Virus record (IMG/VR): IMGVR_UViG_3300044631_002617
Location: 1 to 50,972 of that record
DNA from: a virus
Lineage: Duplodnaviria; Caudoviricetes
DNA: 50,972 bases
Strand: one strand, 5' to 3'
Shown here: positions 320 to 49,690 of the stretch, in pieces
Layout of the letters: each line of letters begins with the position of its first letter
Position numbering within the stretch: the first letter of the stretch is position 1
Notes under the pieces: generated by a model
What the model was told of the DNA's origin: nothing
Databases searched by the model: none
What the model saw: the letters and a program-made list of their open reading frames with translations, nothing else
Made by a program: the position numbers and the translations under genes

Positions 320-355
320 CCCCCACCAGCCTCTGCTTCGGCACGCTGGTGGGGG
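320..355 (+). terminator. Hairpin whose stem is two inverted copies of the GCTGGTGGGG motif
   Basis: CCCCCACCAGC...TGC-TTCG-GCA...GCTGGTGGGGG just after a stop codon. No strong U-tract. Confidence 0.55.
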
Positions 356-379
356 ACGGGCTTCCCGAAAGGAGCAACC

Positions 380-988
380 ATGTCACCCGAGACTCAGCCT
401 GACCTCCCGTCCCTCGTCGTCGCCGCTCTCCTCGTCCCCCTGCCTATGTCCTCGTGGCTCGTCCACCACTCCGCTGTCGAGGTGTCCGCACAGCCCACGT
501 GGATGGACAACGCCACCGACGACCACCGTCCCTACTTCACCGCCCCCAACCACGACACCCTCTCCGACCCCGTCGTCCTCCCCAGCGAGGAGCCCGACTC
601 CACGCACTCCGAGTTCTCCTTCCGTGCCGCATGGGAGATCACCCGATCCGTCGAGCACCTCCCGCCCGCATGGCGATCCGTCTACCGCAAGTGGAATCGC
701 ACGCTCTCCGAGGAGCACGACCTGTCCATGTCATCCGGCGGAGCGCACCGTTACACACGCCTGCACGACACCATCGTCCGCACGCCGCCCACCCCACCAA
801 CCCCAGCCACCATCGAACTCGGCATGTCGCGCTCCCACTCGCGCCGTCGCCAGTTCCGCTCCGCCCTCTACCGCCGTCTAGGCATCGTGCGCTGCCCGCG
901 TACCAACCAGTTCGCCCGTGACCCCGACTCGTCCTGGACCAGCCACGGTCCGCTCGACCGGCGCGTCCGCTGGGCACGACCCGCCTGA
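380..988 (+). CDS. Hypothetical early protein
   Basis: AAGGAG RBS, ATG at 380, C-ending codon usage. Confidence 0.65.
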   Translation: MSPETQPDLPSLVVAALLVPLPMSSWLVHHSAVEVSAQPTWMDNATDDHRPYFTAPNHDTLSDPVVLPSEEPDSTHSEFSFRAAWEITRSVEHLPPAWRSVYRKWNRTLSEEHDLSMSSGGAHRYTRLHDTIVRTPPTPPTPATIELGMSRSHSRRRQFRSALYRRLGIVRCPRTNQFARDPDSSWTSHGPLDRRVRWARPA

Positions 989-1011
989 CCACCACCGCGC
1001 AACTCCTTTCA

Positions 1012-1053
1012 CCCTGTCAGCGTCTGACCCGGCGCTGGCAGGGTTTCTCTTTT
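1012..1053 (+). terminator. Intrinsic terminator
   Basis: CCCTGTCAGCGTC/GGCGCTGGCAGGG stem followed by TTTCTCTTTT. Confidence 0.75.
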
Positions 1054-1077
1054 ACCCCACCGAACCCCGAGGTAGCC

Positions 1078-1368
1078 ATGACAACATCGACCCCCGACCC
1101 CGGACCAGGCCGCTTCTCCGTCTTCTGTGCCTTCGACCCGCACGGCAGGCCCATGCAACTGTGGATGACGCCGGACAAGTACATGCCCGAACTCGTCTGC
1201 GACGACTACCCCATCCCCGATCACCACATCACCAGCCGACTCCTCATCTCCACCAACTCCTTCGCCGAAGCAGCACGCTGCTGGGAAGACAACGCCCGAG
1301 TCCTCCGTCACTTCGCAACCACCTACCACGTCTCCGTCACCACCCTCAATCAATACCTGGAGCACTGA
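1078..1368 (+). CDS. Hypothetical protein
   Basis: GAGGT RBS, typical codon usage. Confidence 0.75.
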   Translation: MTTSTPDPGPGRFSVFCAFDPHGRPMQLWMTPDKYMPELVCDDYPIPDHHITSRLLISTNSFAEAARCWEDNARVLRHFATTYHVSVTTLNQYLEH

Positions 1369-1371
1369 ACC

Positions 1372-2148
1372 ATGCCGTCCCCCACCAACCGCCTCTACCT
1401 CCACGCCGGCGCATCCGAGATCGCCTTCGATGACCTCGCCATGATCGTGCCGCCCGACCCGACCCCCTCGTGGCACCCCATCCCGCACGCCAGCTACGTC
1501 ACCGCCATCCGCGACTCCATCTCCATGCTCGGCGGTCGCATCACCTCCGAAACCCTCGCCATCAAGCCCGGCAAGACCGGTGCCGACAAGCTCTTCGGCC
1601 TCATCGAGTTCGAGCACCCGCGCATCACGCCCCGCCCATCGGGCACCGTTGGCTTCGGCTTCCGCGGCTCCTGGGACAAGACCTTCGCGCAGTCCGGCAT
1701 GCTCTCGTTCCGCACCTTCATCTGCGACAACATGGCCATGTCCGGCGGCGACGCCATCTCGTTCCACCGCAAGAACACGCCCGGTCTCGCCGACAACTAC
1801 GAGACCACCATCGCCACGGCCATGATCGACTTCATCTCCCACGCCAACCGCTTCGTCACCACCCTCAACAACTTCGACACCGTCCCCCTCCCCGACACCC
1901 GTGAGTTCATCGACACCACTGCCTGCGCTCTCGCCGATGCCGGCGCCGTCCTCTGGCAGAATGTCCCCCACCTGCGCCGCGAACTGTCCAACCCCGCCGG
2001 TCCCGCCGGCCTCTTCCCGCAGCGCGAAGCCGGCCTCACCAAGGGCCTCGTCCTGCAGGCCGTGACCGAAGTCGAGAAGCGTTCCCTCAACGCCCTGTCC
2101 ACCGTCGACCGCATGCAAGCGGCCACTTCCTACCTCGCCACCCTCTAA
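1372..2148 (+). CDS. DUF932/DUF945-family protein
   Basis: GSWDKTFA...FRTFICDNMAMSG resembles the NSHD...FRxVCxNG signature, plus a PIPH motif. Confidence 0.7.
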   Translation: MPSPTNRLYLHAGASEIAFDDLAMIVPPDPTPSWHPIPHASYVTAIRDSISMLGGRITSETLAIKPGKTGADKLFGLIEFEHPRITPRPSGTVGFGFRGSWDKTFAQSGMLSFRTFICDNMAMSGGDAISFHRKNTPGLADNYETTIATAMIDFISHANRFVTTLNNFDTVPLPDTREFIDTTACALADAGAVLWQNVPHLRRELSNPAGPAGLFPQREAGLTKGLVLQAVTEVEKRSLNALSTVDRMQAATSYLATL

Positions 2149-2161
2149 CCCGGAGTCTCAC

Positions 2162-2413
2162 ATGAACAAGGAAACCATCGACAACATCCGCTGCGTCCTC
2201 CGCAACAACAACGACTACTACTGGGATCGCCCGAAGCTCGACAAGATCAGCAAGGAAATGGCCGAGTACTCCGAGAAGTACTTCAAGCTCGCCATGAAGT
2301 GGATCGAACTGAACGACGCGCTCACCCGTGCGCTCGAAGTCATCGAGCAGCAGCGTGCCCGCATCGTCGAACTCGAGAACGACCTGTGCCTGCCCGACCA
2401 GAAGGAGAACTGA
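2162..2413 (+). CDS. Hypothetical coiled-coil protein
   Basis: GGAG RBS, heptad-like C-terminus. Confidence 0.75.
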   Translation: MNKETIDNIRCVLRNNNDYYWDRPKLDKISKEMAEYSEKYFKLAMKWIELNDALTRALEVIEQQRARIVELENDLCLPDQKEN

Positions 2414-3021
2414 TGTCCACTACCTACGCCACCCGCACCCGTCCGTTCACCTGCCCGCACCCCATCTCCTCGCTCCAGTCCGAGGCCATCGCCCGTCGTG
2501 CCGAGTTCACCAAGGCCCGTCGTGCCCGCATCGCTGAACTGGTCGAGTCCGCACCGCCCGAAGACCGCGACGAGTTCTACTGGACCATGATCTACGACCT
2601 GGAGCAGGCACCCAAGACCACGGGCCGGGCCCAGCTCCTCGAGTTCGGCATCGTCCCCGTTCCGCCGCAGGAACTGAACAACCCCACCGACCTGCACGAC
2701 GAACTGTGGACGGTCATGGAAGCCCTGTCCCGTGCCGGCATCTACCTCGTCAACACGGATCACCTCACCGACTCCGACCTCTACTCCCGCCTGTACTACC
2801 GCATCCTCGACGAGCCGTGCCAGATGATGCCGCCCGAAGCGGAGTGCGCCGAGTACATCGACGTCCTCCACCCGCTCGACACGGAGTACCCGCTCGGCCG
2901 CGCCCTCTCCAACCGTGGCCCCGCCATCTGCAACCCCGACGTCCCGTACCAGCGTGGCCCCATCTGCACTCTGTCCGGTTGCCTGTCCAACCGCGACACT
3001 TACCTCCCCTCCCGCGTCTAA
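2413..3021 (+). CDS. Conserved hypothetical protein, bacterial-like
   Basis: AAGGAG RBS, TGATG coupling, motifs LHDELW...IYLVNTDHLTDSDLY...EYID...RDTYLP. Confidence 0.8.
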   Translation: MSTTYATRTRPFTCPHPISSLQSEAIARRAEFTKARRARIAELVESAPPEDRDEFYWTMIYDLEQAPKTTGRAQLLEFGIVPVPPQELNNPTDLHDELWTVMEALSRAGIYLVNTDHLTDSDLYSRLYYRILDEPCQMMPPEAECAEYIDVLHPLDTEYPLGRALSNRGPAICNPDVPYQRGPICTLSGCLSNRDTYLPSRV

Positions 3022-3415
3022 CCATACGGGGGCAGGCATGGTTCTCTGACGTGGATGCCCCGGCATGTGCCGGCCATTGCACCATGACCTGCCCCCACCA
3101 AGCCATGGGATATTGCTGCTGTCCGTACTAGTAGGACGGCCTTGCCTTTCCCATGAACACCATGCGTCCTGGCGTTGCCAGGGAGCGGACCCCGTGTCCG
3201 TACGCATGGAGACCGTCAGTGCCATAGATCCTCCGTCTGGCCCACGGTGTGTTGGCATTGACGTCGGTATCCCCCAGCCAACCGCCCTCCTCTGAGCGTC
3301 CATGCCTCTGCTAGCTCCCTGCCGTGATATCCGCGCACAGCTTCCGCAAGCTACTAGTGTCCACCACGATAAGGCTCTGGCTGGTGGGGTACATTCATCA
3401 ACCCCGAGGTCCCAC
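3022..3415 (+). ncRNA. Candidate structured non-coding RNA or long structured leader
   Basis: Intergenic gap with at least six consecutive stems. G-U wobbles favour the + strand. Confidence 0.55.
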
Positions 3416-4090
3416 ATGCAACTCACGCTTCTCCCCACCAAGCCGTCATGCACGGCGTGCGATCTCCATTCCGCCGCGAAGAACGTCGGCATCCCCTCCC
3501 GCCATCTCCCCACCAGCCTGCCGTCTGACCCCACCAACCCGGTCGTCATCGTCATTGGCATGAACCCCGGCACGCAGGAGGACAGGCAAGGCGAGTGCTG
3601 GATCGGTCCCTCCGGCCAGCTCCTGTCCGGCCCGTACCTCGCTGGCTCCGGCGTCGACAACCTCGCCACCATCTACCTCTGCAACGTGGCCCGATGCGTC
3701 TCGCCCGGTGGCAAGCCCAAGCCCGCGCACTACCGCACCTGTTTCAACAACACCCTGCTTGACATCACCACGATCCTGGACCATCATCACGCCGCGTCCG
3801 CCCGTGCCATCCTCTGCGCCGGCGCTGACCCCGTTACATACCTGAGCCGCACGTGGGGCAAGCGTGCCATGTCCCAGCAAGAAGCGTTCCGCGCACAGGG
3901 CATGGCAATCCCGACCCTCCCGCGCACCCACTTCTTCGCCACCTACCACCCGGCCGCAGTCCTCCGGGAGCCCGGTCTCATCCATCCCGTCGCCGACCAC
4001 ATGGCCTTGCTCGCCAACTTCCTGACCGGCGACCTGGCCCGTCCGTCCGCACCCCTCATCCGCACCCCATTCCTCCCGAGGACCACATGA
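3416..4090 (+). CDS. Uracil-DNA glycosylase superfamily, family-4-like
   Basis: CTAC Fe-S motif, GMNPG-x-QED...IGPSGQLL, NVARC, TYHPAAVLR. Confidence 0.9.
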   Translation: MQLTLLPTKPSCTACDLHSAAKNVGIPSRHLPTSLPSDPTNPVVIVIGMNPGTQEDRQGECWIGPSGQLLSGPYLAGSGVDNLATIYLCNVARCVSPGGKPKPAHYRTCFNNTLLDITTILDHHHAASARAILCAGADPVTYLSRTWGKRAMSQQEAFRAQGMAIPTLPRTHFFATYHPAAVLREPGLIHPVADHMALLANFLTGDLARPSAPLIRTPFLPRTT

Positions 4091-4380: not shown

Positions 4381-4609
4381 ACGCGACCACGAATACGAAC
4401 ATCTCCGTCAGCTGGTGGGGTGGACCGTCTCGCACCCTGTCCGCATCAACCACGGCGACGACGACGACGGGATCTACGAACCCTTCTACGGCCTGGTCCT
4501 CACGCATCCGGACAACAAGAAGCACCAACTCCTTGTCACCATCCAGTGCGACCCCGAAGGCAACGGCCCCGGCCACCTCGCCATCGAGAAGGAGAAGTAC
4601 GGCACATGA
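4373..4609 (+). CDS. Hypothetical protein
   Basis: Coupled ORF containing DPEGNGPG. Confidence 0.75.
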   Translation: MTERDHEYEHLRQLVGWTVSHPVRINHGDDDDGIYEPFYGLVLTHPDNKKHQLLVTIQCDPEGNGPGHLAIEKEKYGT

Positions 4610-6065: not shown

Positions 6066-8146
6066 CCAGCCCACGCATCATCTCCCTCGACATCGAGACC
6101 TACGGCGCAGCCGCCACCAACGGTCGGGGGCAGATGCTGCCGGCGCAGACAGTCTTTCATCCTGCACGGGCCATCGCCACGGATGGCGTTGCCCGCCAGG
6201 ATCTTGTGCTGACCTGCGCCATCACCGTTGCAGCAACCGAGCCACCCTACGAGGGACCCGCCGACATGTGGGATCTCGAGCGGGTTGCTGCCCTGCAGCC
6301 CGGCCCGACCTTCACCCTCAACCTGACCGACCCCACCAGCCACGACACTCTGCTGGCCTGGCTCCGCCATGCGCACACCATCGTCGGCATGAACCTGCCG
6401 TTCGACATCCTCTGGCTGCGCGCCTACACCCCGGCCCTTGCCCTCGCCCTCAACGGTCGGCACACCCTCATCGACCTGTCCGTCGTCAACTTCCTGCACT
6501 CCGAACTCCGGCCCGAGCGCAGCCTCAAGTCCCTTGGCCCCGTCCTCGGCACCCACTCCTACCGTGACGAAGCCACGCTCAAGGACGGTCGCCGGTTCCC
6601 TTCCCCCACCTGCCCAAACCTCCACGCGTACAACGCGCAGGACACGCACAACACCATGCTCGCCGTCGCACACCTGGCCCGGCGCATCCAGCGTGACTAC
6701 CCCAGCACGGACAAGCTCAGCTCCTACAGCGTCAACCACTTCAGCGACACGCTGTGGTCCACGATCCGCATGAGCGAGGCCGGCATTCCCTTCTCGCTGC
6801 CTGCACTCCGCACCCTCGAGGCCGACCTCATCAAGCAGGCAGACGACGCCACCAACTGCGCCGCTGCTGGTGGGGTACTCATCGAAGGCGAAGGCTCCGT
6901 CCAATCCCAGCGCGAGTTCATGGCCCGGTGCATCGAGGACATCCTCCCCACCAACCCTGACTTCCTGTCCCACCCCCTGCTCACCTACACCGAGAAAGCG
7001 AGGGAACTCTCGTGGTCCAGCGAGAACCGCAGGCTCATCGCGAGCCACCTGCCCGACTCTCACCCAGCCCGCACCATCTTCGAGTGTGCAGACAAACACA
7101 GCACGGCACAGAAGTTGGTGTCTTCCTACACATATCCGCTCTTGCGTCATCGCCGCACCAAGCCGGCCGACAAGTCGTCTGTCCTGCTCCCACTCACGAG
7201 CACGTCAGACATTGGCCTTGCCTACCCAACTTGGTATACAGTTCCCTCCGTACCAAAGGACTCAGGCTCTGAGGGCGGCACGATCCAAGCCCGGATCACC
7301 TGCAAGAACCCGGCGGCCCAGACTTTCCCCGCCGTCATCAAGGACTGCGAGACCAGCCGCTACCCCGGCGGCACCATCGTCTCCTTCGACCTGAGCCAGA
7401 TCGAGCTACGCGTCGCAGCCGTCCTGTCCGGCGAGCCCACCCTGCTCGCCGCCTTCAACGATGGCCTCGACCTGCACACCCAGCGCACCCTCGCCATCTT
7501 CGGGCAAGACGCGAAGGACCGCCCCGACTTCAAGTCCCTCCGTCAGATCGGTAAGACCGTGAACTTCGCCGACCTGTTCGGTGCGTCCGCGGCCCGCCTC
7601 CAGCGCAGCGTTCTCGACATGTCCGGCACCCTCTACCCCCTGTCCTTCTTCGACCAAATCGTTGCCAGCCGATACGCCCAACGACCTGGGCTGGTGGGGT
7701 GGCAGTACGCACTGTGCAAGCAGGCGGAATCAGCCGGCTACATCGAACTGCCGTACACCGGCCACACCCGCACCTTCACCAGCTTCCGGCTGGACGAACG
7801 GGCATGGCGCAGCAAGCGGGAACTGAAGCAGGTCCTCGCCCGTGGTGGCAAGAGCATGATCTCCGAAGTCTGCAACTTCCCGGTGCAGGCAACGGCGGGC
7901 AACGTCATGCTCGCCATCCAGAACTTCATTCACCGTGCGCTGGGTCCCATCACGAACCCCACCAGCCACAGGCAACCGCAGCTGTTCCTCCAGGTCTACG
8001 ACGCCCTGTACTTCGACTGCCCGCCGGGCACCGAGGGTCAGGCAGCGGACCTCATGTGGGCAGCGGTGGAGTTTGTCGGCACCGCCGGTTACTGGCATGA
8101 GTTGTGCAAGCGTTCCGGTCATCACGCACCCCTTATCTACGAGTAG
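6062..8146 (+). CDS. polA: Family A DNA polymerase with 3'-5' exonuclease domain
   Basis: ExoI DIET, ExoII NLPFD, ExoIII YNAQD, motif A DLSQIELR, motif B RQIGKTVNFADLFG, NFPVQATA, motif C QVYDAL. Confidence 0.95.
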   Translation: MTSPRIISLDIETYGAAATNGRGQMLPAQTVFHPARAIATDGVARQDLVLTCAITVAATEPPYEGPADMWDLERVAALQPGPTFTLNLTDPTSHDTLLAWLRHAHTIVGMNLPFDILWLRAYTPALALALNGRHTLIDLSVVNFLHSELRPERSLKSLGPVLGTHSYRDEATLKDGRRFPSPTCPNLHAYNAQDTHNTMLAVAHLARRIQRDYPSTDKLSSYSVNHFSDTLWSTIRMSEAGIPFSLPALRTLEADLIKQADDATNCAAAGGVLIEGEGSVQSQREFMARCIEDILPTNPDFLSHPLLTYTEKARELSWSSENRRLIASHLPDSHPARTIFECADKHSTAQKLVSSYTYPLLRHRRTKPADKSSVLLPLTSTSDIGLAYPTWYTVPSVPKDSGSEGGTIQARITCKNPAAQTFPAVIKDCETSRYPGGTIVSFDLSQIELRVAAVLSGEPTLLAAFNDGLDLHTQRTLAIFGQDAKDRPDFKSLRQIGKTVNFADLFGASAARLQRSVLDMSGTLYPLSFFDQIVASRYAQRPGLVGWQYALCKQAESAGYIELPYTGHTRTFTSFRLDERAWRSKRELKQVLARGGKSMISEVCNFPVQATAGNVMLAIQNFIHRALGPITNPTSHRQPQLFLQVYDALYFDCPPGTEGQAADLMWAAVEFVGTAGYWHELCKRSGHHAPLIYE

Positions 8147-9548: not shown

Positions 9549-10238
9549 GTGTCCCAAGTCACCGTCCTGATTGACGCCCGGGAAAAGAAACCCCTTGCCT
9601 TTCCCGCACACCTCGTGGTGCTGGACAGGAATGCCCTGCCCACCTCCGGTCGGTCCCGCACAGTCACGGTCCGCACGCAGTCTGAGACCATGAAGACTGG
9701 GGACTACCGGTTGGTGGGGGGCAAGGCGGCCATTGAGCGGAAGGGATCCTTCGAGGAGATCGCGGGGAACTGCCTAACCCTCGACGGCAGGCGACGTTTT
9801 ATTGAATGCTGCCGCCGCCTCCGGGACGAGTGCAGCAGGGCGTGCCTCTTGTTCGAGGGCGCAGTGGGGGGCTTCGAGGTTCGGGCTGGACTTCCCCATC
9901 CGGGGGTCGCAACCGACGCTTTATTGGATATCATCGGGGAGCACGGGCTACCGCTCATGCTGCTCCCCCTGAGCACGACCGGCCAACGTAGGGCGGCAGG
10001 GGAATGGGCGCTGAGGTGGCTCCTATCGCAGGAACGCCATGTCATACGTCACGCTCACGACCGACACCAAGAACTACCACAAGTCGACGACCTTCGCAGT
10101 AACGGCGACGGCGGCCCAGGCAAAGTCGGTTGTGACGACGAAGCCCGAGCCGGTGGCGAATCGCAGCACGGTGCTGGGCGCATCGTACAACTACCTCAAG
10201 CTGAAGATCTACTGCAGCGCAAGCACCCCGGTGCCTAG
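9549..10238 (+). CDS. ERCC4/XPF-domain nuclease (probable resolvase)
   Basis: IDARE, GDY and IERK motifs. The C-terminal tail overlaps the next gene. Confidence 0.85.
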   Translation: MSQVTVLIDAREKKPLAFPAHLVVLDRNALPTSGRSRTVTVRTQSETMKTGDYRLVGGKAAIERKGSFEEIAGNCLTLDGRRRFIECCRRLRDECSRACLLFEGAVGGFEVRAGLPHPGVATDALLDIIGEHGLPLMLLPLSTTGQRRAAGEWALRWLLSQERHVIRHAHDRHQELPQVDDLRSNGDGGPGKVGCDDEARAGGESQHGAGRIVQLPQAEDLLQRKHPGA

Positions 10239-12890: not shown

Positions 12891-13006
12891 CGACTCTCGC
12901 TGACATCAGTTCGTTCCTCGGTAGCCTGTGGTTCGCAGGCCTGCTTGGCACCCTCGGCTTCGTGGCCGGTTGGTTCCTCTGCAAGAAGCACGGCAGCAAG
13001 TTCTGA
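12887..13006 (+). CDS. 39-aa membrane peptide MTTLADISSFLGSLWFAGLLGTLGFVAGWFLCKKHGSKF
   Basis: AAGGAG RBS, ATGA and TGATG coupling. Too short for the ORF track. Confidence 0.7.
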   Translation: MTTLADISSFLGSLWFAGLLGTLGFVAGWFLCKKHGSKF

Positions 13007-13923: not shown

Positions 13924-13935
13924 ACCCCACCAGCC

Positions 13936-17506: not shown

Positions 17507-17586
17507 GTTCTGCTACACTACCCCGTACCCCACCAGCCGGGGGAGGGTTGCCCGCAAAGCGCCCTCCCCCTCATTGACCCCCGGAT

Positions 17587-40733: not shown

Positions 40734-42654
40734 TTGGCTTTTCCTCCATGCCATTCATCAGGGACTGAACAGACATCCGGTTGAAATCCATCGCTTCGAC
40801 CGCTGCACCCCCACCAGCCAAGGGGTCGCGGACACTTCCGTCCGACAGCATCTGCTCGAAGTCGAGCGTGGTGGGCTGCTCCCCGGGGGCCAACTGGCGG
40901 TCCAACCGGCCCCGGACCACGAACATGCTCATCGCCACCGTGTCCAGGAAGTCGTCGTGCTGGAGGCCGCCGCTCTCCGCGTCCGGGTTGAACTGCTCGA
41001 TCTGGTCGAACAGGAGCCGCCACGGGAGCTGCCCCCTGCGCCAGACGGGGAACTTTATGAGCCCATGCTCGAACCGGTAGTGCAGGGCGTTGATCTTGCT
41101 GGTCTTGTCCAGCGTGCCCACCCGCAGGGGGATGATCCGGGGCGGGGTCTCGCCCGTAACCTCCGCCGCCTTCTGCCGCACCATGCTCTCCATCGCCGCG
41201 TACAGGCCGAACGACTGCCGCACCACCTCGGGGTGAATCGTCGGGCACCCCCACCTGCCGGCCATCGCAAACGACTTCTCGATCAGCGTCTGCTCCCGGC
41301 ACTGCGAGCCCCACGTGTCCAGCACGAACAGGCACGCGTCAACCGGGTCGTACCCCATCAGGGTGCAGACCTTGTAGTCGCTGTCGCTCGTCGCCGTGTA
41401 ACTGGTGTCCACGGTGATGAACATGCGGACCCGCTCCCGGAGGAACTGGGCCAGCGGCATCTTCTCCTCAAGCCCGCTCTTCCCATTCCAGCAAATCACC
41501 GCCTCGCTGCGCTTGGGATCCGTATCTACCAGTGGGTCCGGACTCTCGAGCCACCAGCCGTGGCGGGCCTGGGTAACCTCGCCGAAGTGCAGGTCCTCGG
41601 ACTCGCCCGGCTGGGCCAGGTACTCAGCCAGGTAGTTGTGGCTGCCGATCATCTCCCGGATCTCTTCCAGGCTGACCAGCCCCTTCAACTTGGGGTCCGC
41701 GTCCTTGGCTTTCCGGTCCAGCGGCCACATGCCCGGCCAACAGGACTTCCGCACCCCGTCCTCTTCGTACTCCGCCTTCAGCACCAGACGCGCCCACTGG
41801 TCGAAACGGGGGTCCGTTGCCACCTGACCGTGCGGCCCCGCCTGCGTCATCATCGCGTGCCACGCGTAGTGCCGCCGGCTCACGAACGTGGCCAGCCACC
41901 GCACGCTTGTATCACGCCGTGTCACCATTGGCATGACGACCTTGAACAGCAGCCGCTCCATGTACGACCGCAGCACGCTCATGCTCGTGCTGGCCTTCGG
42001 GTCATACTCCGGGTCATCCAGCGCATACACGCGCGGGCGACCACCGCGCTGACGGCTCTCGGCGCTGATTGCGCGGAACCAGCTGCCGTTGTTCAGGTAC
42101 ATCATCTCCACGCCGAACGACCGCTCACCCCTCTTGGGCGTGATGCGGCCATCAGGGAACTCCGGACCCCAATCGTCGAACAGACGCTGGTTGCCGAGGA
42201 ACTGGGTCTTCAGAACCTGGCTCGTCTGCTCCGCGTTGTCTATGCTGCTCGTCGCGTAGATGAAGGAGTACGCCGGGCGGCTAACCATCTGGAGGAGTGC
42301 CGACTTCCGGAAACAGTTGCTCTTGGCAAAGCCGCGGGGCGCAATCGCCACAGATCGCGGTGCGAGGGCCCACAGCCGGTAGATGGCGAAGTGGCCAAGC
42401 GGCGATTCGATGGGATCATCATCGTAGAAGTAAGGGTTGAACTCCTCTTCCCAATCCGGGTACAGGTAGTACCGGTCGAAGAAGTTGATGCACGCAGCCA
42501 GCGCGTGCGCCCGATCCATGGGATCGCCACCCAGTTGCCACTGCTTGCACGCGTTCACCCGGGCCAGCCTCTGGCCTTCGGGCGTCAGCGTCAGGTAGTC
42601 CGCCGGCAGCGGGTAGAAGTCGTTTCCCTTGCGCTCGATCCGGACAATGCTCAA
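40708..42654 (-). CDS. terL: Terminase large subunit
   Basis: Walker A APRGFAKS, RGGRP..LDDPE, nuclease VDTS...SD and HDDFLD. Start may be 42654 (TTG) or 42678. Confidence 0.93.
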   Translation of the reverse strand: MSIVRIERKGNDFYPLPADYLTLTPEGQRLARVNACKQWQLGGDPMDRAHALAACINFFDRYYLYPDWEEEFNPYFYDDDPIESPLGHFAIYRLWALAPRSVAIAPRGFAKSNCFRKSALLQMVSRPAYSFIYATSSIDNAEQTSQVLKTQFLGNQRLFDDWGPEFPDGRITPKRGERSFGVEMMYLNNGSWFRAISAESRQRGGRPRVYALDDPEYDPKASTSMSVLRSYMERLLFKVVMPMVTRRDTSVRWLATFVSRRHYAWHAMMTQAGPHGQVATDPRFDQWARLVLKAEYEEDGVRKSCWPGMWPLDRKAKDADPKLKGLVSLEEIREMIGSHNYLAEYLAQPGESEDLHFGEVTQARHGWWLESPDPLVDTDPKRSEAVICWNGKSGLEEKMPLAQFLRERVRMFITVDTSYTATSDSDYKVCTLMGYDPVDACLFVLDTWGSQCREQTLIEKSFAMAGRWGCPTIHPEVVRQSFGLYAAMESMVRQKAAEVTGETPPRIIPLRVGTLDKTSKINALHYRFEHGLIKFPVWRRGQLPWRLLFDQIEQFNPDAESGGLQHDDFLDTVAMSMFVVRGRLDRQLAPGEQPTTLDFEQMLSDGSVRDPLAGGGAAVEAMDFNRMSVQSLMNGMEEKPNAKRGSRV

Positions 42655-42989
42655 GTACGCCCCACCAGCCGCACGCAAGCAATGCGGAGGACGGCGACCG
42701 CCAGCATGCGCGGATCCTTCTGGAACCGGGCCAGGTCGTCGCAGACGTCGAACCAGTACTGCGTGACCTTGACCTCGTTGCGGATCATGTCGCCGAACAC
42801 GGGCGGCTCGACCGCACGGTAGATGCTGGGCTCACCGATTCCCAGATCCTGCAGGATGGCCGCGCCAAGGCGGTAGCACTCAATGGGCTCAAGACTCTGA
42901 ATCGTCTCGAACACCTTGAGATGCCGATCCGGAATCTCGAGCGGGGAGGAACTGGGCTGCGAACGGGAGACTGTCTGGGACTTGGACAT
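42651..42989 (-). CDS. Hypothetical protein
   Basis: GGAG RBS, coupled to terL. Confidence 0.65.
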   Translation of the reverse strand: MSKSQTVSRSQPSSSPLEIPDRHLKVFETIQSLEPIECYRLGAAILQDLGIGEPSIYRAVEPPVFGDMIRNEVKVTQYWFDVCDDLARFQKDPRMLAVAVLRIACVRLVGRT

Positions 42990-43308
42990 GGGACTTGCTC
43001 TCCTGAAGTGACTGCACCAACTTGGTGGTCGAACTGATCTTAACCGTCTGGTTGCCTTCCGTGTGCGTGATTTCCGCGTTCTGGCTCCGGATCACCCCGT
43101 TGATCTCCGCCGTCTCCCGCACCACGCCACGCAGCTGCTTCATCGCCGCCATCGCGACCTTCGGGTCCGGGTCCCGGCTGAACCCCACCAACCGCTCCAC
43201 TTCCTCCCGTGCTTCCCAGCCCGTGGACCGCAGGCCCAACGCCACGCCGTCCATGCCAAAGAAAGCGCGGATGCACTCGCTGTTCGGATCCGCACGTTCC
43301 TTCATCAC
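42889..43308 (-). CDS. Terminase small subunit candidate
   Basis: Helical, DPKVAMAAMKQL, upstream of terL. Confidence 0.5.
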   Translation of the reverse strand: MMKERADPNSECIRAFFGMDGVALGLRSTGWEAREEVERLVGFSRDPDPKVAMAAMKQLRGVVRETAEINGVIRSQNAEITHTEGNQTVKISSTTKLVQSLQESKSHVQVPDSLPFAAQFLPARDSGSASQGVRDDSES

Positions 43309-44993: not shown

Positions 44994-45468
44994 TTGCCTG
45001 CTCCTGTTCGCCGGACGGGATCAGTGTAAGCACAAACCGGGTCAGTTCAGCGGCCGCACTCCTGATTGCCGCACGATCCGCTGGTGGGGTCTGCAGCCCG
45101 TGCATTCGCCGTGCGTCGATGATGGACCGCACCACCAGCTTCCAGTTCCTCTGCACCTCCTGCGGATCGACCTTGATGCGGTAGTGGTTGCTGGGCAACG
45201 CAGACCGCTTCAGGTACGAGTTGCTGGCGCAGAAGTCACGGTTTCCGGGGACCGACAGGTTCTTGATGCACACCTGGAACACGGCGGGATCGACGAACCC
45301 CACCTTGCCGAAGTAGATCAAGGGGCAGCAGATGGACCGGCACAGCGAACGGAACGACCGGTTGTTGGTGATTCCGAACGGCCGCAGTTCTCGGATGTAG
45401 TACTCCTCCGACATGAGGCGCACGCCCCTGCCGAAGGAGATCACCCACTGCTCGTCCTGCTTGCTCAA
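44971..45468 (-). CDS. Hypothetical protein
   Basis: TTGA coupling, typical codon usage. Confidence 0.7.
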   Translation of the reverse strand: MSKQDEQWVISFGRGVRLMSEEYYIRELRPFGITNNRSFRSLCRSICCPLIYFGKVGFVDPAVFQVCIKNLSVPGNRDFCASNSYLKRSALPSNHYRIKVDPQEVQRNWKLVVRSIIDARRMHGLQTPPADRAAIRSAAAELTRFVLTLIPSGEQEQANGQADQD

Positions 45469-46732: not shown

Positions 46733-46755
46733 TGGTCTTCCAACAAGGAGAGAGT

Positions 46756-48171
46756 ATGACTGACTGGATCCAGAATCCGTTGCAGTCGCTTGAGCCCGTC
46801 AAGGTGGCTCGGCGAATCCTTCACCGCCAGTTTACCGCCCCGGGTGGCATGAGGGGACTGTGGAGGTGGAAGAATGATTGGTGGAGCTGGGAGGGCGGCA
46901 CGTGGCGCGTGCTGGACGAGGAGCGCATCCGTGACCGGGTGTGGCTCGTGCTTGAGGACGCGATGTACGAGCGGCCCACCCAGAACGGGTTGGTGCTGGT
47001 TCGGTACAGCCCGGACAAGCAGAAGGTCGACGGGGTCGTGCGCGCGCTGGAGGCGCTGGTGCGGATTGATGCGGAGGAGGTCCCGCTGTGGCTGGAGGCC
47101 CCGGATGCTCGGTTTCCCGTGGGGGAGACAGTTGCGTTCCGGGATGTTCTGGTCAATGTGAAGACGCTGGAGACCATGGAGCGACCGGCCCGGTGGTTCG
47201 ACACCGCCATCCTGCCCGTTGAGTACAAGCCGGATGCCCCCACCAGCCGATGGCAGCAGGCAGTGAACGAGTGGGGTGACGGGGACCCGGTGTGGGCTGA
47301 GTTGCTGGCGCGGTGGATGGGGTACTGCCTGATGGGCAGCCGCAAGTATGCCCGGTGGATGCTCATGTACGGCAAGATCCGCGGCGGCAAGGGCACGATC
47401 AGCAGCGTGATCCGGAAGTTGGTCGGGCGGGATGCGTTCATGGGCGCGAGCCTGGAGGATCTGGCCGGCGGTTTCGGCATGGACGGGCTCGAGCGCACGA
47501 AGGTGCTGAGCATCAACGAGGTGAGTGAGCTGGATGGGAAGAGTGGCGAGCGGGTGTGTCGGGTGGTCAAGAACATCGTGGGCAGGGATCCGATGACCGT
47601 GGATGCGAAGTACATGCGGCAGCAGCGGAACGTGATCGTGAACGCGGCGGTCATCATGCAGAGCAACGAGATCCCGGTGCTGCCCAACAAGGGCAGGGGT
47701 TTGAGCGGAAAGATGTTGGTTCTGCCGTTCGAGGTGAGCTTTGAGGGCAGGGAGGACCTGGACCTGGAGGGCGAGCTGGAGCGTGAGCTGGCGGGAATCG
47801 CGGCGTGGGCTGTTGCGGGAGCGAATCGGTTGGAGAACAGCCGGGCGGCGGAGAGGTGGCCGGTTCCGAAGGCTGGCGAGCGGGCGGTTCACATGTACCA
47901 CCTGCAGAACAACCCGTTCGATTCGTTCCTTGAGGCACGGTTCGTGAGGAGGAAGGAAGGGTTCGTGAGCAACGTGATGATCAGGAGCCAGTGGGAGGCG
48001 TGGACCAAGGCCAACAAGATCCGGATGCACGTGGCGAACAACATGCTGCCGATGAAGTTGGTGCAGGGGAGCAGCTGGGACCTGCGGCAGGTGAGGCTTG
48101 CGGAAAGTCAGGGCCACGAGAGGGGAATTGCTGGGATGAGCCTCCGGAAGGAGTACGATGATGAGCACTAG
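46756..48171 (+). CDS. D5/P4-type superfamily 3 helicase without a primase domain
   Basis: AAGGAG RBS, Walker A GKIRGGKGT, Walker B LSINE, motif C SNEIP. Confidence 0.88.
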   Translation: MTDWIQNPLQSLEPVKVARRILHRQFTAPGGMRGLWRWKNDWWSWEGGTWRVLDEERIRDRVWLVLEDAMYERPTQNGLVLVRYSPDKQKVDGVVRALEALVRIDAEEVPLWLEAPDARFPVGETVAFRDVLVNVKTLETMERPARWFDTAILPVEYKPDAPTSRWQQAVNEWGDGDPVWAELLARWMGYCLMGSRKYARWMLMYGKIRGGKGTISSVIRKLVGRDAFMGASLEDLAGGFGMDGLERTKVLSINEVSELDGKSGERVCRVVKNIVGRDPMTVDAKYMRQQRNVIVNAAVIMQSNEIPVLPNKGRGLSGKMLVLPFEVSFEGREDLDLEGELERELAGIAAWAVAGANRLENSRAAERWPVPKAGERAVHMYHLQNNPFDSFLEARFVRRKEGFVSNVMIRSQWEAWTKANKIRMHVANNMLPMKLVQGSSWDLRQVRLAESQGHERGIAGMSLRKEYDDEH

Positions 48172-48458: not shown

Positions 48459-48493
48459 GCCCCTGCCTCCTTCGGGAGGTGGGGGTGTTTGTT
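48459..48493 (+). terminator. Intrinsic terminator
   Basis: CCCCTGCCTCC-TTCG-GGAGGTGGGG followed by GTGTTTGTT. Confidence 0.7.
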
Positions 48494-48809
48494 AGGGGGG
48501 ATACCGGAGGTACCAGACTTCCGGTCGCCCCTTTCTTCTATATATACCTATCTCTATTAAAGGAAAGGAAGAGTAGGTATCCCTGGTACTGGTTAGGGAT
48601 TTGGTAGGGAATTTTGAGAGGGAGATACCCTTTCCACTATTATCAGTACCTCACGGTGGGGCCGCTACCCCACCCCCAACCGAACGCACAACGCAGGAAG
48701 CGTGATATCGGACGCAACCCGTGACAGTGCGTCTGTCGCCGCGGATAGTGGTTGTCCTTGGTACCCAAGATCCGTGTGACGAAGCGCCTTCCGTAGGTTT
48801 GCGCTCCCC

Positions 48810-48843
48810 CTCTCTTGTCCCTTCGGATGAAGGGACAAGAGAG
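48810..48843. repeat. Perfect 15-bp inverted repeat
   Basis: CTCTCTTGTCCCTTC-GGAT-GAAGGGACAAGAGAG. Confidence 0.9.
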
Positions 48844-48901
48844 TGTTTCTCCTGTCTTCTTCGCACATTTAGCGCCTACTGGCGCATGAAAGGAGTTCGC
48901 C

Positions 48902-49207
48902 ATGTCGAACGTCCAGCGTTATTCGGGTCTCTCGTCCAGCCTCATCGTCGTGAAGAGCGTGCAGTCTGTGGATTGCTTCGGCAACCAGACCAGCGTGACG
49001 GAACTCGGCGTCGTCAACTCGACCGGCGCCGACATCGTCATCCCCGCTGGTTCCACGCTGTACGTCACCGTCGTGCCCGGCACGTCCTCCGTCAAGGAGG
49101 ACGGTGACGCGAAGACCCGCACCTCGCGCGGGACGGACGTCCGTGTGTGGACGCCCAAGGCGAAGGACGCCGCAGCGACCATCCCGGCCGCTGACGTGCC
49201 GTTCTGA
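48902..49207 (+). CDS. Hypothetical early protein
   Basis: AAAGGAG RBS, biased codons, terminator downstream. Confidence 0.8.
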   Translation: MSNVQRYSGLSSSLIVVKSVQSVDCFGNQTSVTELGVVNSTGADIVIPAGSTLYVTVVPGTSSVKEDGDAKTRTSRGTDVRVWTPKAKDAAATIPAADVPF

Positions 49208-49218
49208 CGTCTCACCCC

Positions 49219-49258
49219 TCCCCTGTACGGCTAACTGCCGTACAGGGGATTTCTCTTT
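49219..49258 (+). terminator. Intrinsic terminator
   Basis: TCCCCTGTACGGC/GCCGTACAGGGGA 13-bp stem followed by TTTCTCTTT. Confidence 0.8.
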
Positions 49259-49424
49259 GCCCTTCGTCCGAACCGGCAACCCATGACAGCAACATCGACC
49301 CCCGTTGCTCGCGTCCTGTGCCGCCGCGTCAAGCCCTCCAGATGCAGGGCTTGTCGCTCTGTTGGTTGTTGGTGCGTGGTGCATCAACACAACTGGCCCC
49401 CGTGGCCAGAGAGAGGAGTTGGCC

Positions 49425-49649
49425 ATGAACGCCAACTGTGTCATTACGTTTCATTCGGCTGTGATCATCGACCGCACGACCTCCGACCCCGGTGCGTGGT
49501 GGCGCGCGACCGAGCGCGATGACGGAACGACGTACGTGGACTGCAAGCGCGACGGCCTCACGTCCATCTCGCTCATCCCGTTCGACCAGTACCTCGAGTT
49601 CCACAAGGCGCGTGGTTGCGAGATCAAGCCCATTGAGACGTTCAAGTGA
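49425..49649 (+). CDS. Hypothetical early protein
   Basis: GAGGAG RBS. Confidence 0.7.
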   Translation: MNANCVITFHSAVIIDRTTSDPGAWWRATERDDGTTYVDCKRDGLTSISLIPFDQYLEFHKARGCEIKPIETFK

Positions 49650-49656
49650 CAACCAC

Positions 49657-49690
49657 TCCCCACCAGCCTTGACTGGTTGGTGGGGATTTC
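49657..49690 (+). terminator. Terminator-like hairpin built from the motif and its variant
   Basis: TCCCCACCAGCC-TTGACT-GGTTGGTGGGGA followed by TTTC. Confidence 0.7.

What the first reader, a model, noticed from the sequence alone, without database searches (positions are those of the whole stretch)
321..49685. Genome saturated with a Chi-containing 10-mer, GCTGGTGGGG: candidate undescribed DNA-marking system
Seen: GCTGGTGGGG starts on + at 345, 3380, 4411, 6866, 7690, 12440, 18221, 18918, 20772, 24272, 29833, 31344, 33349, 39173 and 45080. CCCCACCAGC starts at 321, 3508, 6331, 7957, 13925, 14322, 15523, 17528, 23942, 24264, 27775, 28273, 29158, 30328, 34199, 37626, 40809, 42660, 47238 and 49658. 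That is 35 copies by eye, about one per 1.45 kb. About 14 GTTGGTGGGG/CCCCACCAAC variants also occur (near 792, 1380, 3529, 6947, 9710, 14297, 18348, 24425, 27919, 31469, 34875, 35750, 43183, 49676). A rough base-composition estimate at an assumed ~64% GC gives about 0.4 expected exact copies. Known: the first 8 nt are the E. coli RecBCD Chi site. I saw only a few 8-mers without the trailing GG (near 8545, 40147, 41551, 45132), so the selected word looks longer than Chi. Inference: a protein reads this word. Options are a host Chi-like signal that protects injected DNA from RecBCD/AddAB, a self tag for a phage nuclease, a priming or loading site, or a binding site for a DNA-organising protein.
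Basis: partly seen in the sequence, partly recalled or inferred. Interest (0 to 1): 0.93.

Follow-up and report, generated by a model that had tools for sequence, protein, structure and literature searches.

The report
Chi-containing 10-mer saturating a phage genome
An uncultured phage and its relatives keep dozens of copies of a short DNA word that contains the bacterial recombination signal Chi, most likely to control a host DNA-end nuclease, though neither the host nor the protein that reads the word is known.

Summary
GCTGGTGGGG occurs 35 times (15 on +, 20 on -) against 0.30 expected, and GTTGGTGGGG occurs 14 times against 0.20. The invariant core is GGTGGGG, and TGGTGGGG occurs 63 times.

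The window is a complete phage genome assembled as a circle, with a 127-bp end repeat.

Codon usage does not explain the excess: 28 genic sites against about 1.8 after synonymous shuffling. The encoded tripeptides LVG and PTS are themselves in excess.

The core is the top over-represented 8-mer in most of 16 relatives checked, at 50-66% GC. Sites are conserved, third codon positions included (0.86 against 0.68 identity), and they also turn over.

None of about 1,480 sampled bacterial genomes is rich in the word. Cyanobacteria could not be tested. The host is unknown.

Best reading (confidence 0.4): a Chi-like signal for a host helicase-nuclease, as in the Chi-rich phages LLS, P1 and MD8. It differs from those in three ways: the word is longer, the strand bias is weak, and the phage has its own nuclease and ATPase genes. 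A reader encoded by the phage itself is nearly as likely (0.3).

The parts
321..330 (-). GCTGGTGGGG copy; left arm of the conserved hairpin, outside called genes
345..354 (+). GCTGGTGGGG copy; right arm of the conserved hairpin, outside called genes
3380..3389 (+). GCTGGTGGGG copy, outside called genes
3508..3517 (-). GCTGGTGGGG copy, antisense in the UDG-like gene, read as PTS
4411..4420 (+). GCTGGTGGGG copy, sense, read as LVG
6331..6340 (-). GCTGGTGGGG copy, antisense in the DNA polymerase gene, PTS
6866..6875 (+). GCTGGTGGGG copy, sense in the DNA polymerase gene, AGG
7690..7699 (+). GCTGGTGGGG copy, sense in the DNA polymerase gene, LVG
7957..7966 (-). GCTGGTGGGG copy, antisense in the DNA polymerase gene, PTS
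12440..12449 (+). GCTGGTGGGG copy, sense, LVG
13925..13934 (-). GCTGGTGGGG copy between two genes
14322..14331 (-). GCTGGTGGGG copy, antisense in the PD-(D/E)XK nuclease gene, PTS
15523..15532 (-). GCTGGTGGGG copy, antisense, PTS
17528..17537 (-). GCTGGTGGGG copy, outside called genes
18221..18230 (+). GCTGGTGGGG copy, outside called genes
18918..18927 (+). GCTGGTGGGG copy, antisense in the 1250-aa gene, PTS
20772..20781 (+). GCTGGTGGGG copy, antisense in the 1250-aa gene, PTS
23942..23951 (-). GCTGGTGGGG copy, sense, AGG
24264..24273 (-). GCTGGTGGGG copy; overlaps the next copy to form a perfect 18-bp palindrome (24264-24281)
24272..24281 (+). GCTGGTGGGG copy; second half of the 18-bp palindrome
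27775..27784 (-). GCTGGTGGGG copy, sense in the 906-aa gene, LVG
28273..28282 (-). GCTGGTGGGG copy, sense in the 906-aa gene, LVG
29158..29167 (-). GCTGGTGGGG copy, sense in the 906-aa gene, LVG
29833..29842 (+). GCTGGTGGGG copy, antisense in the 906-aa gene, PTS
30328..30337 (-). GCTGGTGGGG copy, sense in the 906-aa gene, LVG
31344..31353 (+). GCTGGTGGGG copy, antisense, PTS
33349..33358 (+). GCTGGTGGGG copy, antisense in the adaptor-like gene, PTS
34199..34208 (-). GCTGGTGGGG copy, sense, LVG; core kept in 6 of 7 near relatives
37626..37635 (-). GCTGGTGGGG copy, sense, AGG; exact in 19 of 22 near relatives
39173..39182 (+). GCTGGTGGGG copy, antisense in the 664-aa gene, PTS; exact in 30 of 31 near and 6 of 16 far relatives
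40809..40818 (-). GCTGGTGGGG copy, sense in the large terminase gene, AGG; exact in 23 of 36 near relatives
42660..42669 (-). GCTGGTGGGG copy, sense in the large terminase gene, AGG; exact in 20 of 23 near relatives
45080..45089 (+). GCTGGTGGGG copy, antisense, TPPA frame; exact in 3 of 18 near relatives
47238..47247 (-). GCTGGTGGGG copy, antisense in the D5-like helicase gene, PTS; exact in 7 of 13 near relatives
49658..49667 (-). GCTGGTGGGG copy, outside called genes
792..801 (-). GTTGGTGGGG variant
1380..1389 (-). GTTGGTGGGG variant
3529..3538 (-). GTTGGTGGGG variant
6946..6955 (-). GTTGGTGGGG variant
9710..9719 (+). GTTGGTGGGG variant
14297..14306 (-). GTTGGTGGGG variant
18348..18357 (-). 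GTTGGTGGGG variant
24425..24434 (-). GTTGGTGGGG variant
27919..27928 (+). GTTGGTGGGG variant
31469..31478 (-). GTTGGTGGGG variant
34875..34884 (+). GTTGGTGGGG variant; core kept in 7 of 8 near relatives
35750..35759 (-). GTTGGTGGGG variant; core kept in 2 of 2 near and 4 of 4 far relatives
43183..43192 (-). GTTGGTGGGG variant
49676..49685 (+). GTTGGTGGGG variant
314..360 (+). Stem-loop just downstream of the gene ending at 302; its arms are the motif copies at 321 and 345
   Evidence: -35.1 kcal/mol, z -5.27, 0 of 200 shuffles fold as well; compensatory changes on both arms in 4 of 6 relatives aligned
14293..15519 (+). PD-(D/E)XK nuclease gene; a candidate phage-encoded reader or partner (not shown)
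16100..16906 (+). AAA_24 ATPase gene; Sak4-like by recall
13006..13923 (+). Gene matching a 'DNA repair exonuclease' phage family
40708..42678 (-). Large terminase gene, used to find relatives; its sense strand carries most core motifs

Best explanation
The word (G)G-Y-T-GGTGGGG is a Chi-like control signal. A host helicase-nuclease that processes DNA ends (RecBCD, AddAB or a similar enzyme) would read it as single-stranded DNA while unwinding from a free end. Shown: the phage family has accumulated and keeps about one copy per kb, on both strands, at the cost of minor codons and of altered protein sequence. Inferred: whichever part of the circularly assembled, possibly permuted genome becomes an end at injection, rolling-circle replication, fork breakage or packaging, the enzyme soon meets a correctly oriented copy. 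It then stops degrading and switches to promoting recombination. This would be the strategy of the Chi-rich phages LLS, P1 and MD8, adapted to a host whose signal is longer than, or shifted from, the E. coli octamer.
For: 1) Sequence. 35 of the 63 TGGTGGGG cores carry the exact E. coli Chi octamer, and 53 of 63 fit GNTGGTGG. GNTGGTGG is one of the forms listed for Haemophilus influenzae in bioRxiv 10.1101/2020.08.13.249359 (part 1 of 3 of the text read).
2) Selection on the DNA. The excess survives the codon shuffles. 12 of 16 LVG tripeptides are written CTG-GTG-GGG although GGG is only 17% of Gly codons. 13 of 14 PTS are written CCC-ACC-AGC. LVG (16 against 6.5 expected) and PTS (14 against 4.0) are themselves in excess.
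3) Purifying selection with turnover, as expected when density rather than particular positions is selected. Third codon positions inside the word are 0.860 identical to near relatives against 0.676 outside. In far relatives the figures are 0.793 against 0.576, and at non-coding positions 0.948 against 0.788. In the near group the core sits at 42 distinct orthologous positions, many of them present only in subsets.
4) A property of the whole family. TGGTGGGG or CTGGTGGG ranks first in 14 of the 16 relatives analysed de novo, and TGGTGGGG is in the top five of the other two (L031, L046). These relatives span 50-66% GC. Five near-complete relatives carry 24-48 cores against 1-4 for the reversed control.
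5) Precedent. LLS has 23 Chi (1 per 1.86 kb), P1 has 50, and MD8 has 32 copies of the Pseudomonas form. [quoted passage not shown] Bobay et al. found Chi over-represented in phages that need concatemers (PMC3784561, passages).
6) Spacing is slightly more even than random (CV 0.75 against 0.96; 5.3% of random placements are as even). Most cores lie on the terminase-sense strand in all 6 genomes.
Against: 1) No bacterial genome rich in the word was found.
- 201 Burkholiales-order genomes: at most 68 copies (0.02 per kb).
- 301 Gammaproteobacteria, 181 Alphaproteobacteria, 121 Verrucomicrobiota and 121 Planctomycetota: at most 11 same-strand pairs within 300 bp, and the top values came from repeat arrays.
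- 301 Actinomycetia and 251 Alphaproteobacteria: at most 1 inverted pair.
- 10 single genomes were also at or near background.
These are samples. The pair tests would miss a 10-mer kept at below about 0.05 per kb. Cyanobacteria could not be sampled.
2) In Burkholderiales genomes where GCTGGTGG is common (0.45-0.49 per kb), only 4-8% of copies are followed by GG, against 35 of 39 in the phage. The phage word is therefore not simply that octamer.
3) The flanking preferences differ from E. coli Chi. Here G precedes the 10-mer and GG immediately follows the Chi octamer. In E. coli it is T at -1 to -3 and A or G at +4 to +7 (PMC5041463, abstract and section 16).
4) Known Chi-rich phages show strong one-strand polarity (20 of 23 in LLS; 32 of 32 in MD8) and clustering near one end. 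Here the 10-mer is 15:20 and evenly spread. The 2:1 to 3:1 bias of the core can be accounted for by GC skew of about -0.09, for which I calculate an expected ratio of about 3.5:1.
5) Known Chi-rich phages mostly lack their own recombination genes. This phage has a PD-(D/E)XK nuclease, an AAA_24 ATPase and an exonuclease-like gene.
6) Ten to eleven specified bases is longer than any Chi listed in the papers read (5-8 nt).
Confidence: 0.4

Rival explanations
1. A protein encoded by the phage family itself reads the word. It could be a self tag that spares phage DNA from a phage nuclease that degrades host DNA. It could be a loading or regulatory site for the phage's own nuclease/ATPase recombination module. 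Or it could be a binding site for a protein that organises DNA.
For: The same core is kept in relatives from 50 to 66% GC and down to 69% terminase identity. That fits a conserved phage component. No sampled bacterial genome carries the enrichment. In the IMG/VR scan for inverted pairs, all 9 of the 55 loci analysed that are motif-dense align to this phage; the other 46 carry no more than one copy beyond the pair that was searched for. The near-equal use of both strands suits a protein that binds duplex DNA. The phage encodes a PD-(D/E)XK nuclease, an AAA_24 ATPase and an exonuclease-like protein. Most of its 73 called genes have no known family.
Against: No gene could be tied to the word, and no DNA-binding family was detected among the 63 proteins scanned. 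I know of no precedent for a phage-encoded reader of a word dispersed over the genome at this density, and one search found none for these strings. The exact overlap with Chi would then be coincidence. The IMG/VR test is weak, because it only finds contigs with a pair within 30 bp.
Confidence: 0.3
2. The word is a start or loading site for lagging-strand priming or for the D5-like helicase. About one copy per kb would then match the length of Okazaki fragments.
For: Density is about 1 per 0.8-1.5 kb with slightly even spacing. The phage has its own DNA polymerase and a D5-like helicase. Copies on both strands would suit recombination-dependent replication.
Against: No primase domain was recognised. 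From recall, known primase sites are 3-5 nt and need no enrichment. The nearly constant negative GC skew suggests one-directional replication, which would predict copies on one template strand only. This is not seen for the 10-mer (15:20).
Confidence: 0.1
3. The phage mirrors a word that saturates its host genome for another reason: an uptake-signal-like sequence, or a product of biased repair. The word would then have no function of its own in the phage.
For: The genomic pattern matches uptake sequences as I recall them. It is about 1 per kb, equal on both strands, evenly spaced and confined to favoured reading frames that encode common tripeptides. One inverted pair forms a terminator-like hairpin.
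Against: No saturated genome was found among those sampled, and both the inverted-pair and direct-pair tests are sensitive to saturation of that kind. The phage has its own DNA polymerase and no integrase or other lysogeny gene was detected. Passive drift toward host composition is then hard to reconcile with the strong synonymous-site constraint.
Confidence: 0.1
4. The excess is a by-product of codon usage, repeated peptide motifs or shared ancestry, with no selection on the DNA word.
For: 21 of 28 genic copies sit in the one phase that puts G or C at third codon positions. CTG and GTG are the commonest Leu and Val codons. Many counts in relatives repeat the same inherited sites.
Against: Codon-preserving shuffles give about 1.8 or 0.4 genic copies against 28. 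The same control does explain CCTGCAGG. Seven copies lie outside called genes. The minor codon GGG is used. The word is read in 5 different strand-and-frame combinations. Third positions inside the word are more conserved than outside, and new sites arise at non-orthologous positions.
Confidence: 0.03

Closest known systems
Chi-rich phages that exploit host RecBCD (E. coli phages LLS and P1; Pseudomonas phage MD8 with GCTGGCGC); Zheng et al. 2025, PMC12315714; Bobay et al. 2013, PMC3784561
   Same: A short non-palindromic word containing or resembling Chi is the most over-represented word in the phage genome, at about 1 per 1.5-2 kb. Codon usage does not explain it. Near-variants are also frequent, which suggests gain and loss of sites.
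   Different: Here 10-11 bases are specified instead of 8. The octamer is almost always followed by GG, and the variant GTTGGTGGGG lacks the exact octamer. Copies are nearly equal on both strands and evenly spread, not polar and clustered near one end. The phage has its own nuclease and ATPase genes. Neither the host nor its signal is known.
Chi of E. coli (GCTGGTGG) and H. influenzae (GNTGGTGG), read by RecC
   Same: The first 8 bases of the main form are identical to E. coli Chi. The tolerance at position 2 mirrors the Haemophilus form. The favoured coding phase, G-CTG-GTG-G, is by recall the phase most used for Chi in E. coli.
   Different: The invariant part is shifted toward the 3' end (GGTGGGG). 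The flanking preferences differ from those measured for E. coli RecBCD (PMC5041463). No enzyme was tested.
DNA uptake sequences of Pasteurellaceae (USS) and Neisseriaceae (DUS) (recalled, not from a call)
   Same: A non-palindromic word of about 10 nt, at about 1 per kb, equal on both strands, evenly spaced, with frame-specific use in genes and an inverted pair acting as a terminator-like hairpin.
   Different: Those words saturate bacterial chromosomes and serve DNA uptake. Here the carrier is a phage with its own DNA polymerase and no detected lysogeny genes, and no saturated bacterial genome was found.

Membership tests
Chi (crossover hotspot instigator) signal / Chi-rich phage class | Sequence related to the Chi octamer | tested here: met
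   35 of 63 TGGTGGGG cores carry exact GCTGGTGG; 53 of 63 fit GNTGGTGG
Chi (crossover hotspot instigator) signal / Chi-rich phage class | Recognised by the host RecBCD or AddAB enzyme, with cutting or attenuation in one orientation | not testable with these tools
   Host unknown: no cultured relative, no tRNA, no taxonomy or 71
Chi (crossover hotspot instigator) signal / Chi-rich phage class | Same word over-represented in the host (core) genome | tested here: inconclusive
   Not found in the roughly 1,480 genomes sampled. The host lineage may not have been sampled, cyanobacteria could not be tested, and the pair tests miss low densities
Chi (crossover hotspot instigator) signal / Chi-rich phage class | Strong orientation bias relative to packaging or replication | tested here: inconclusive
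   10-mer 15:20. Core 21:42 in the window and 17:31, 16:31, 17:30, 24:7 and 6:18 in relatives, always favouring the terminase-sense strand. That strand is also the G-rich one, which alone predicts such a ratio
Chi (crossover hotspot instigator) signal / Chi-rich phage class | Phage lacks its own recombination module and RecBCD inhibitor (the rule in PMC12315714) | tested here: not met
   PD-(D/E)XK nuclease, AAA_24 ATPase and an exonuclease-like gene are present. Their role in recombination is inferred from family names only
DNA uptake sequence (USS/DUS type) | About 1 copy per kb, no strand bias, frame-specific use in genes, inverted pairs as hairpins | tested here: met
DNA uptake sequence (USS/DUS type) | Saturates the chromosome of a naturally competent bacterium | tested here: not met
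   No saturated genome among those sampled: at most 1 inverted pair within 300 bp per genome in 552 genomes, and at most 11 direct pairs in 724
Polar chromosome-orienting words (KOPS type) | Near-complete skew to one strand per replication arm | tested here: not met
   15:20 for the 10-mer, with the two orientations interleaved along the genome
Codon-usage or peptide-repeat artefact | Excess disappears when codon usage or protein sequence is held fixed | tested here: not met
   28 genic copies against about 1.8 (synonymous shuffle) and about 0.4 (codon-order shuffle)

The most novel reading that the evidence does not exclude
The word is a self tag read by a protein of this uncultured phage family. 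A dispersed 10-11-nt signal would tell a phage helicase-nuclease or recombination machine 'this is phage DNA'. Host DNA could then be destroyed, or phage DNA preferentially repaired, replicated or packaged, independently of any host Chi system. In effect it would be a phage-owned counterpart of Chi.
Probability: 0.3. Interest if true: 0.85.

Novelty: new variant of a known kind. Interest (0 to 1): 0.62.

Why it matters
If the word is a host Chi-like signal, this phage family gives a ready-made, very sharp readout of the recombination signal of an uncultured host lineage. The word is 10-11 nt long and enriched about 100-fold over a dinucleotide model. Chi-like signals have been characterised in only about five or six species (bioRxiv 10.1101/2020.08.13.249359; PMC5959072), so this would also show how the signal shifts and lengthens in evolution. 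It would extend the 'Chi-rich phage' strategy from temperate enteric and Pseudomonas phages to a phage that has its own DNA polymerase and no detected lysogeny genes, and it would show a mode that uses both strands. Either way, the selection is strong enough to distort protein sequences, which makes the word an easy handle for experiments.

Tried and rejected
Codon or peptide artefact: rejected.

Longer repeat or mobile element: rejected, because the flanks are unrelated.

Cultured relatives, to infer a host:
- 12 kb of DNA against the phage collection: no match.
- Large terminase: 1 record at 20.7% identity.
- 664-aa protein: no match.
- DNA polymerase: 1,510 records, all below 60% identity; the rows shown are 23-25%.

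Other routes to the host:
- tRNA genes: none.
- Protein atlas with the terminase: only 'Viruses' as taxa.
- Homologue search with the DUF6915 protein: 526 hits with no organism names.

No locus held more than 4 copies in 8 kb. This scan cannot exclude a saturated genome further down the collection.

A mistake in test design: the inverted-pair tests are blind to a polar, Chi-like word. I therefore added direct-pair tests, but not for Actinomycetia.

A misreading corrected: the sites of one Burkholderiales contig appeared to be all on one strand. Fetching 400 kb showed 28 on + and 64 on -, and GCTGGTGG is not among the top octamers there. The impression came from the order of the listing.

Other rejected leads:
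- G1079 and G619 gave raised pair counts. These come from a short repeat and a 71-bp tandem array. G1079 has 67 copies in all against 39 for the control.
- Palindrome CCTGCAGG: explained by codon usage.
- Literature search for the four strings: 3,668 papers hold at least one of them. None of the 25 listed concerns a bacterial or phage genome word; they are primers and unrelated sequences. I saw listings only.

Supplementary tables of the Chi papers could not be opened. They may list predicted Chi words for more species than the main texts do.

No structure or complex prediction was run, because no candidate reader emerged.

Full report
WHAT THE WINDOW IS. The window is the whole record, one contig of 50,972 bases. 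Its first and last 127 bases are identical, and IMG/VR classes it as having direct terminal repeats and as 100% complete. It is therefore a complete genome of 50,845 bp that assembles as a circle. Relatives run straight across the window's ends.

It is a tailed phage. Family matches are:
- a family A DNA polymerase (6062-8146) next to a UDG-superfamily gene (3416-4090);
- a PD-(D/E)XK nuclease (14293-15519);
- an AAA_24 ATPase (16100-16906);
- a gene matching a 'DNA repair exonuclease' phage family (13006-13923);
- a D5-like helicase (46756-48171; DUF5906 is above its cut-off, D5_N just below);
- a large terminase (40708-42678, minus strand);
- an SU10-type adaptor (32986-33927, minus strand).

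My own gene calls, from a codon-bias score, give 73 genes covering 88% of the window. They lie on + up to 18.5 kb, on - to 46 kb, and on + again from 46.7 kb. There are no tRNA genes. There is no close cultured relative.

THE OBSERVATION. Every coordinate given for GCTGGTGGGG is correct. There are 35 copies, 15 on + and 20 on -, against 0.30 in dinucleotide-preserving shuffles; the largest shuffle value was 2. GTTGGTGGGG occurs 14 times against 0.20. GCTGGTGG occurs 39 times, so only four copies lack the trailing GG. The flanks of the copies share nothing.

Counting all words shows a nested signal: GGTGGGG 85, TGGTGGGG 63, CTGGTGGGG 40, TTGGTGGGG 17 and GGCTGGTGGGG 19. Single-base variants show which positions matter. 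No variant at positions 4-10 occurs more than twice. Position 2 accepts T (14 copies), and positions 1 and 3 show a few alternatives. The base before the word is G at 41 of the 63 cores. The selected word is thus (G)G-Y-T-GGTGGGG, with an invariant 3' heptamer.

IS IT CODON USAGE? No. Of the 28 copies inside called genes, 21 sit in the single phase that puts motif positions 1, 4, 7 and 10 at third codon positions. These are either sense, xxG-CTG-GTG-GGG (Leu-Val-Gly, 8 copies), or antisense, xxC-CCC-ACC-AGC (Pro-Thr-Ser, 13 copies). Five are read as Ala-Gly-Gly and two in other frames.

Shuffling synonymous codons within each gene, which keeps every protein sequence, gives 8.84 copies (sd 1.28, max 13). 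Shuffling codon order gives 7.39 (max 10). Seven sites outside genes are fixed in both, so the genic expectation is about 1.8 and 0.4 against 28 observed.

Selection also reaches the proteins. LVG occurs 16 times against 6.5 expected from amino-acid shuffles, and PTS 14 times against 4.0. Twelve of 16 LVG and 13 of 14 PTS are written with exactly the motif codons, although GGG is only 17% of glycine codons.

The same shuffles do explain the next most frequent unrelated word, CCTGCAGG: 9 observed against 6.9 and 4.1. The control can therefore remove codon-driven excess when that is the cause.

Orientation relative to transcription is balanced. From the gene blocks, 17 copies read with the local coding strand and 18 against it; 14 of each lie within called genes.

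RELATIVES. A terminase search of IMG/VR gave 55 loci (57 of 62 candidate stretches were confirmed). They fall into one group at about 83-91% protein identity and one at about 67-70%. Together they hold 228 copies of the 10-mer in 597,086 bases, or 0.38 per kb. The near group has 0.2-1.0 per kb and the far group 0-0.29 per kb.

I analysed 16 of the longer loci de novo. TGGTGGGG or CTGGTGGG is the most over-represented octamer in 14, including loci at 50% GC, and TGGTGGGG is in the top five of the other two (L031, L046). Some far relatives prefer GTTGGTGGGG or CTGGTGGG.

Five near-complete relatives carry 48, 47, 47, 31 and 24 cores against 1-4 for the reversed control.

Mapped onto the window, some sites are almost universal:
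- 39173: exact in 30 of 31 near and 6 of 16 far loci;
- 37626: 19 of 22;
- 42660: 20 of 23;
- 40809: 23 of 36.
Others are rare, such as 45080 (3 of 18). In the near group the core occupies 42 distinct orthologous positions, and many are present only in subsets, for example 6 of 28, 7 of 36 and 7 of 18. Sites are therefore gained and lost.

Third codon positions inside the word are 0.860 identical to the window against 0.676 outside (near group), and 0.793 against 0.576 (far group). Non-coding positions are 0.948 against 0.788. These cells are not independent, because the sequences are related.

ARRANGEMENT. Copies are spread over the whole genome, with the two orientations interleaved. Spacing is a little more even than random: CV 0.75 against 0.96, and 5.3% of random placements are as even. 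For the + strand alone, CV is 0.59, with 2.5% as even. With several tests run, this is weak evidence.

The core shows a 21:42 bias toward the minus strand. In all five relatives the majority strand is also the terminase-sense strand (with orientations). That strand is the G-rich one, since GC skew is negative in 21 of 25 two-kb windows. For a word with seven G, I calculate that a skew of about 0.09 alone predicts a ratio of about 3.5:1. I therefore do not count the bias as polarity.

Two copies, at 321 and 345, are the arms of a strong stem-loop 19 bases after a stop codon: -35.1 kcal/mol, z -5.27. In 4 of 6 aligned relatives both arms have changed together (A-T to G-C in two, a two-base swap in one, two positions in another). 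This keeps the stem while losing the word. That pair is therefore, at least partly, a structural element. Two other copies overlap to form a perfect 18-bp palindrome at 24264-24281.

THE SEARCH FOR A HOST OR ANOTHER CARRIER. Background in five assorted bacterial genomes is 9-42 copies per genome, about 0.01 per kb.
- 201 genomes of the order of a Bordetella-labelled genome: maximum 68 copies, 0.02 per kb.
- Inverted pairs within 300 bp: at most 1 per genome in 301 Actinomycetia (15 genomes with any) and in 251 Alphaproteobacteria (4 with any). This test would detect uptake-sequence-like saturation, but not a polar word.
- Same-strand pairs of GYTGGTGGGG within 300 bp: at most 7 in 301 Gammaproteobacteria in the GTDB sense (25 with any), 6 in 121 Verrucomicrobiota, 3 in 121 Planctomycetota and 11 in 181 Alphaproteobacteria. 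The top values came from repeat arrays.
- Five more single genomes gave 0-11 pairs.
- Cyanobacteria could not be sampled, because I could not obtain a handle.
- The IMG/VR scan for the inverted pair returned 56 stretches. Of the 55 I analysed, the 9 that are motif-dense all align to this phage. The other 46 carry no more than one copy beyond the searched pair.

Some Burkholderiales genomes do have GCTGGTGG at 0.45-0.49 per kb, 7.7 times the reversed control. There only 4-8% of copies are followed by GG, against 90% in the phage. In 400 kb of one such genome the octamer is not among the most frequent words.

All of this rests on samples of large groups. It shows 'not found in those searched', not absence.

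INTERPRETATION. The facts call for a reader that needs many copies, everywhere in the genome, in both orientations, and that checks about 10 bases with a strict 3' heptamer. The closest known case is Chi enrichment in phages.
- LLS has 23 Chi (1 per 1.86 kb) and P1 has 50. MD8 has 32 copies of the Pseudomonas form GCTGGCGC. In all three Chi is the top octamer, codon usage does not explain it, and near-variants are also frequent (PMC12315714, sections 15 and 18).
- Chi is over-represented in phages that need concatemers (PMC3784561, passages).
- The word here contains the Chi octamer. Its tolerance at position 2 recalls the Haemophilus form GNTGGTGG (bioRxiv 10.1101/2020.08.13.249359).
- A genome that assembles as a circle may have permuted ends. 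Protection and recombination would then need correctly oriented copies near any possible end. That would explain the use of both strands and the even spread. This step is inference.

Against this reading:
- no host genome rich in the word was found;
- the word is longer than the 5-8 nt Chi forms listed in the papers read;
- the flank preferences differ from those of E. coli RecBCD (PMC5041463);
- there is no strong polarity or terminal clustering;
- the phage has its own nuclease and ATPase genes, whereas known Chi-rich phages mostly lack a recombination module.

I put the Chi-like reading at 0.4. A reader encoded by the phage family (self tag, loading site for its own recombination module, or organiser) is at 0.3. 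It is favoured by the constancy of the core across relatives of very different GC content and by the failure to find the word enriched anywhere else, but no gene could be tied to it. A priming or helicase-loading site is at 0.1. Passive mirroring of a host word is at 0.1. An artefact is at about 0.03.

NOVELTY. Phages enriched in Chi are known. A family of uncultured phages keeping a 10-11-nt extension of Chi on both strands, at 0.7-1.2 per kb, does not appear in the papers I could search. Search 14, on the sequence strings, listed only primers and unrelated sequences. Searches returned the Chi literature cited above. I could not open supplementary tables. I rate it a new variant of a known kind, with a real chance (0.3) of something new in kind.

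Noticed in passing
window 1-127 and 50846-50972: Exact 127-bp direct repeat at the two ends. The genome assembles as a circle, its true length is 50,845 bp, and the gene at 50527-50970 continues into 3-302. Relatives are permuted relative to the window.
   Followed up: yes
window 314-360: Strong stem-loop 19 bases after a stop codon, with no T-run after it. Its arms covary in relatives (compensatory changes in 4 of 6), so the structure itself is conserved. It may be a terminator or a protein-binding hairpin.
   Followed up: partly
window 24264-24281: Perfect 18-bp palindrome made of two overlapping motif copies, inside the gene at 24200-24529.
   Followed up: no
window 2052, 8937, 15835, 19103, 25332, 27215, 38292, 39904, 42848: CCTGCAGG occurs 9 times, always inside genes in the phase C-CTG-CAG-G. 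Codon-preserving shuffles give 6.9 and 4.1, so codon usage largely explains it.
   Followed up: yes
L012, L026, L031, L032, L046, L047 (IMG/VR relatives): Individual relatives each show their own over-represented 8-10-bp palindromes: CAAGCTTG, GCGCATGCGC, CCTCGAGG, AAGCGCTT, TTCGCGAA and TGGAATTCCA. They were measured only against an order-3 Markov model and were not tested with codon shuffles. They may be codon effects, as CCTGCAGG is in the window.
   Followed up: no
window 1-46000 against 46001-48000; intergenic 45999-46755: The + strand is C-rich in 21 of 25 two-kb windows whatever the gene direction. The skew turns strongly positive only at 46-48 kb, next to the 750-bp gap between diverging gene blocks. 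This suggests one-directional replication from an origin near 46 kb.
   Followed up: no
window 30786-32447: A 553-aa frame in a stretch of lower GC (0.577) and atypical codon bias. My codon-based caller did not pick it, and it has no family match. It may be a recently acquired gene.
   Followed up: no
G204 and G185 (unnamed Burkholderiales-order genomes): GCTGGTGG occurs at 0.45-0.49 per kb, 7.7 times its reversed control and about twice the E. coli Chi density quoted in PMC12315714. It is not preferentially followed by GG.
   Followed up: partly
G1079:C36:118963-119024 and G619:C1:561136-562009: A short repeat unit that contains GCTGGTGGGG followed by ACAGGCAC, seen in a Verrucomicrobiota genome. 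A 71-bp tandem array that contains GTTGGTGGGG, seen in an alphaproteobacterial genome. Both are unrelated to the phage.
   Followed up: no
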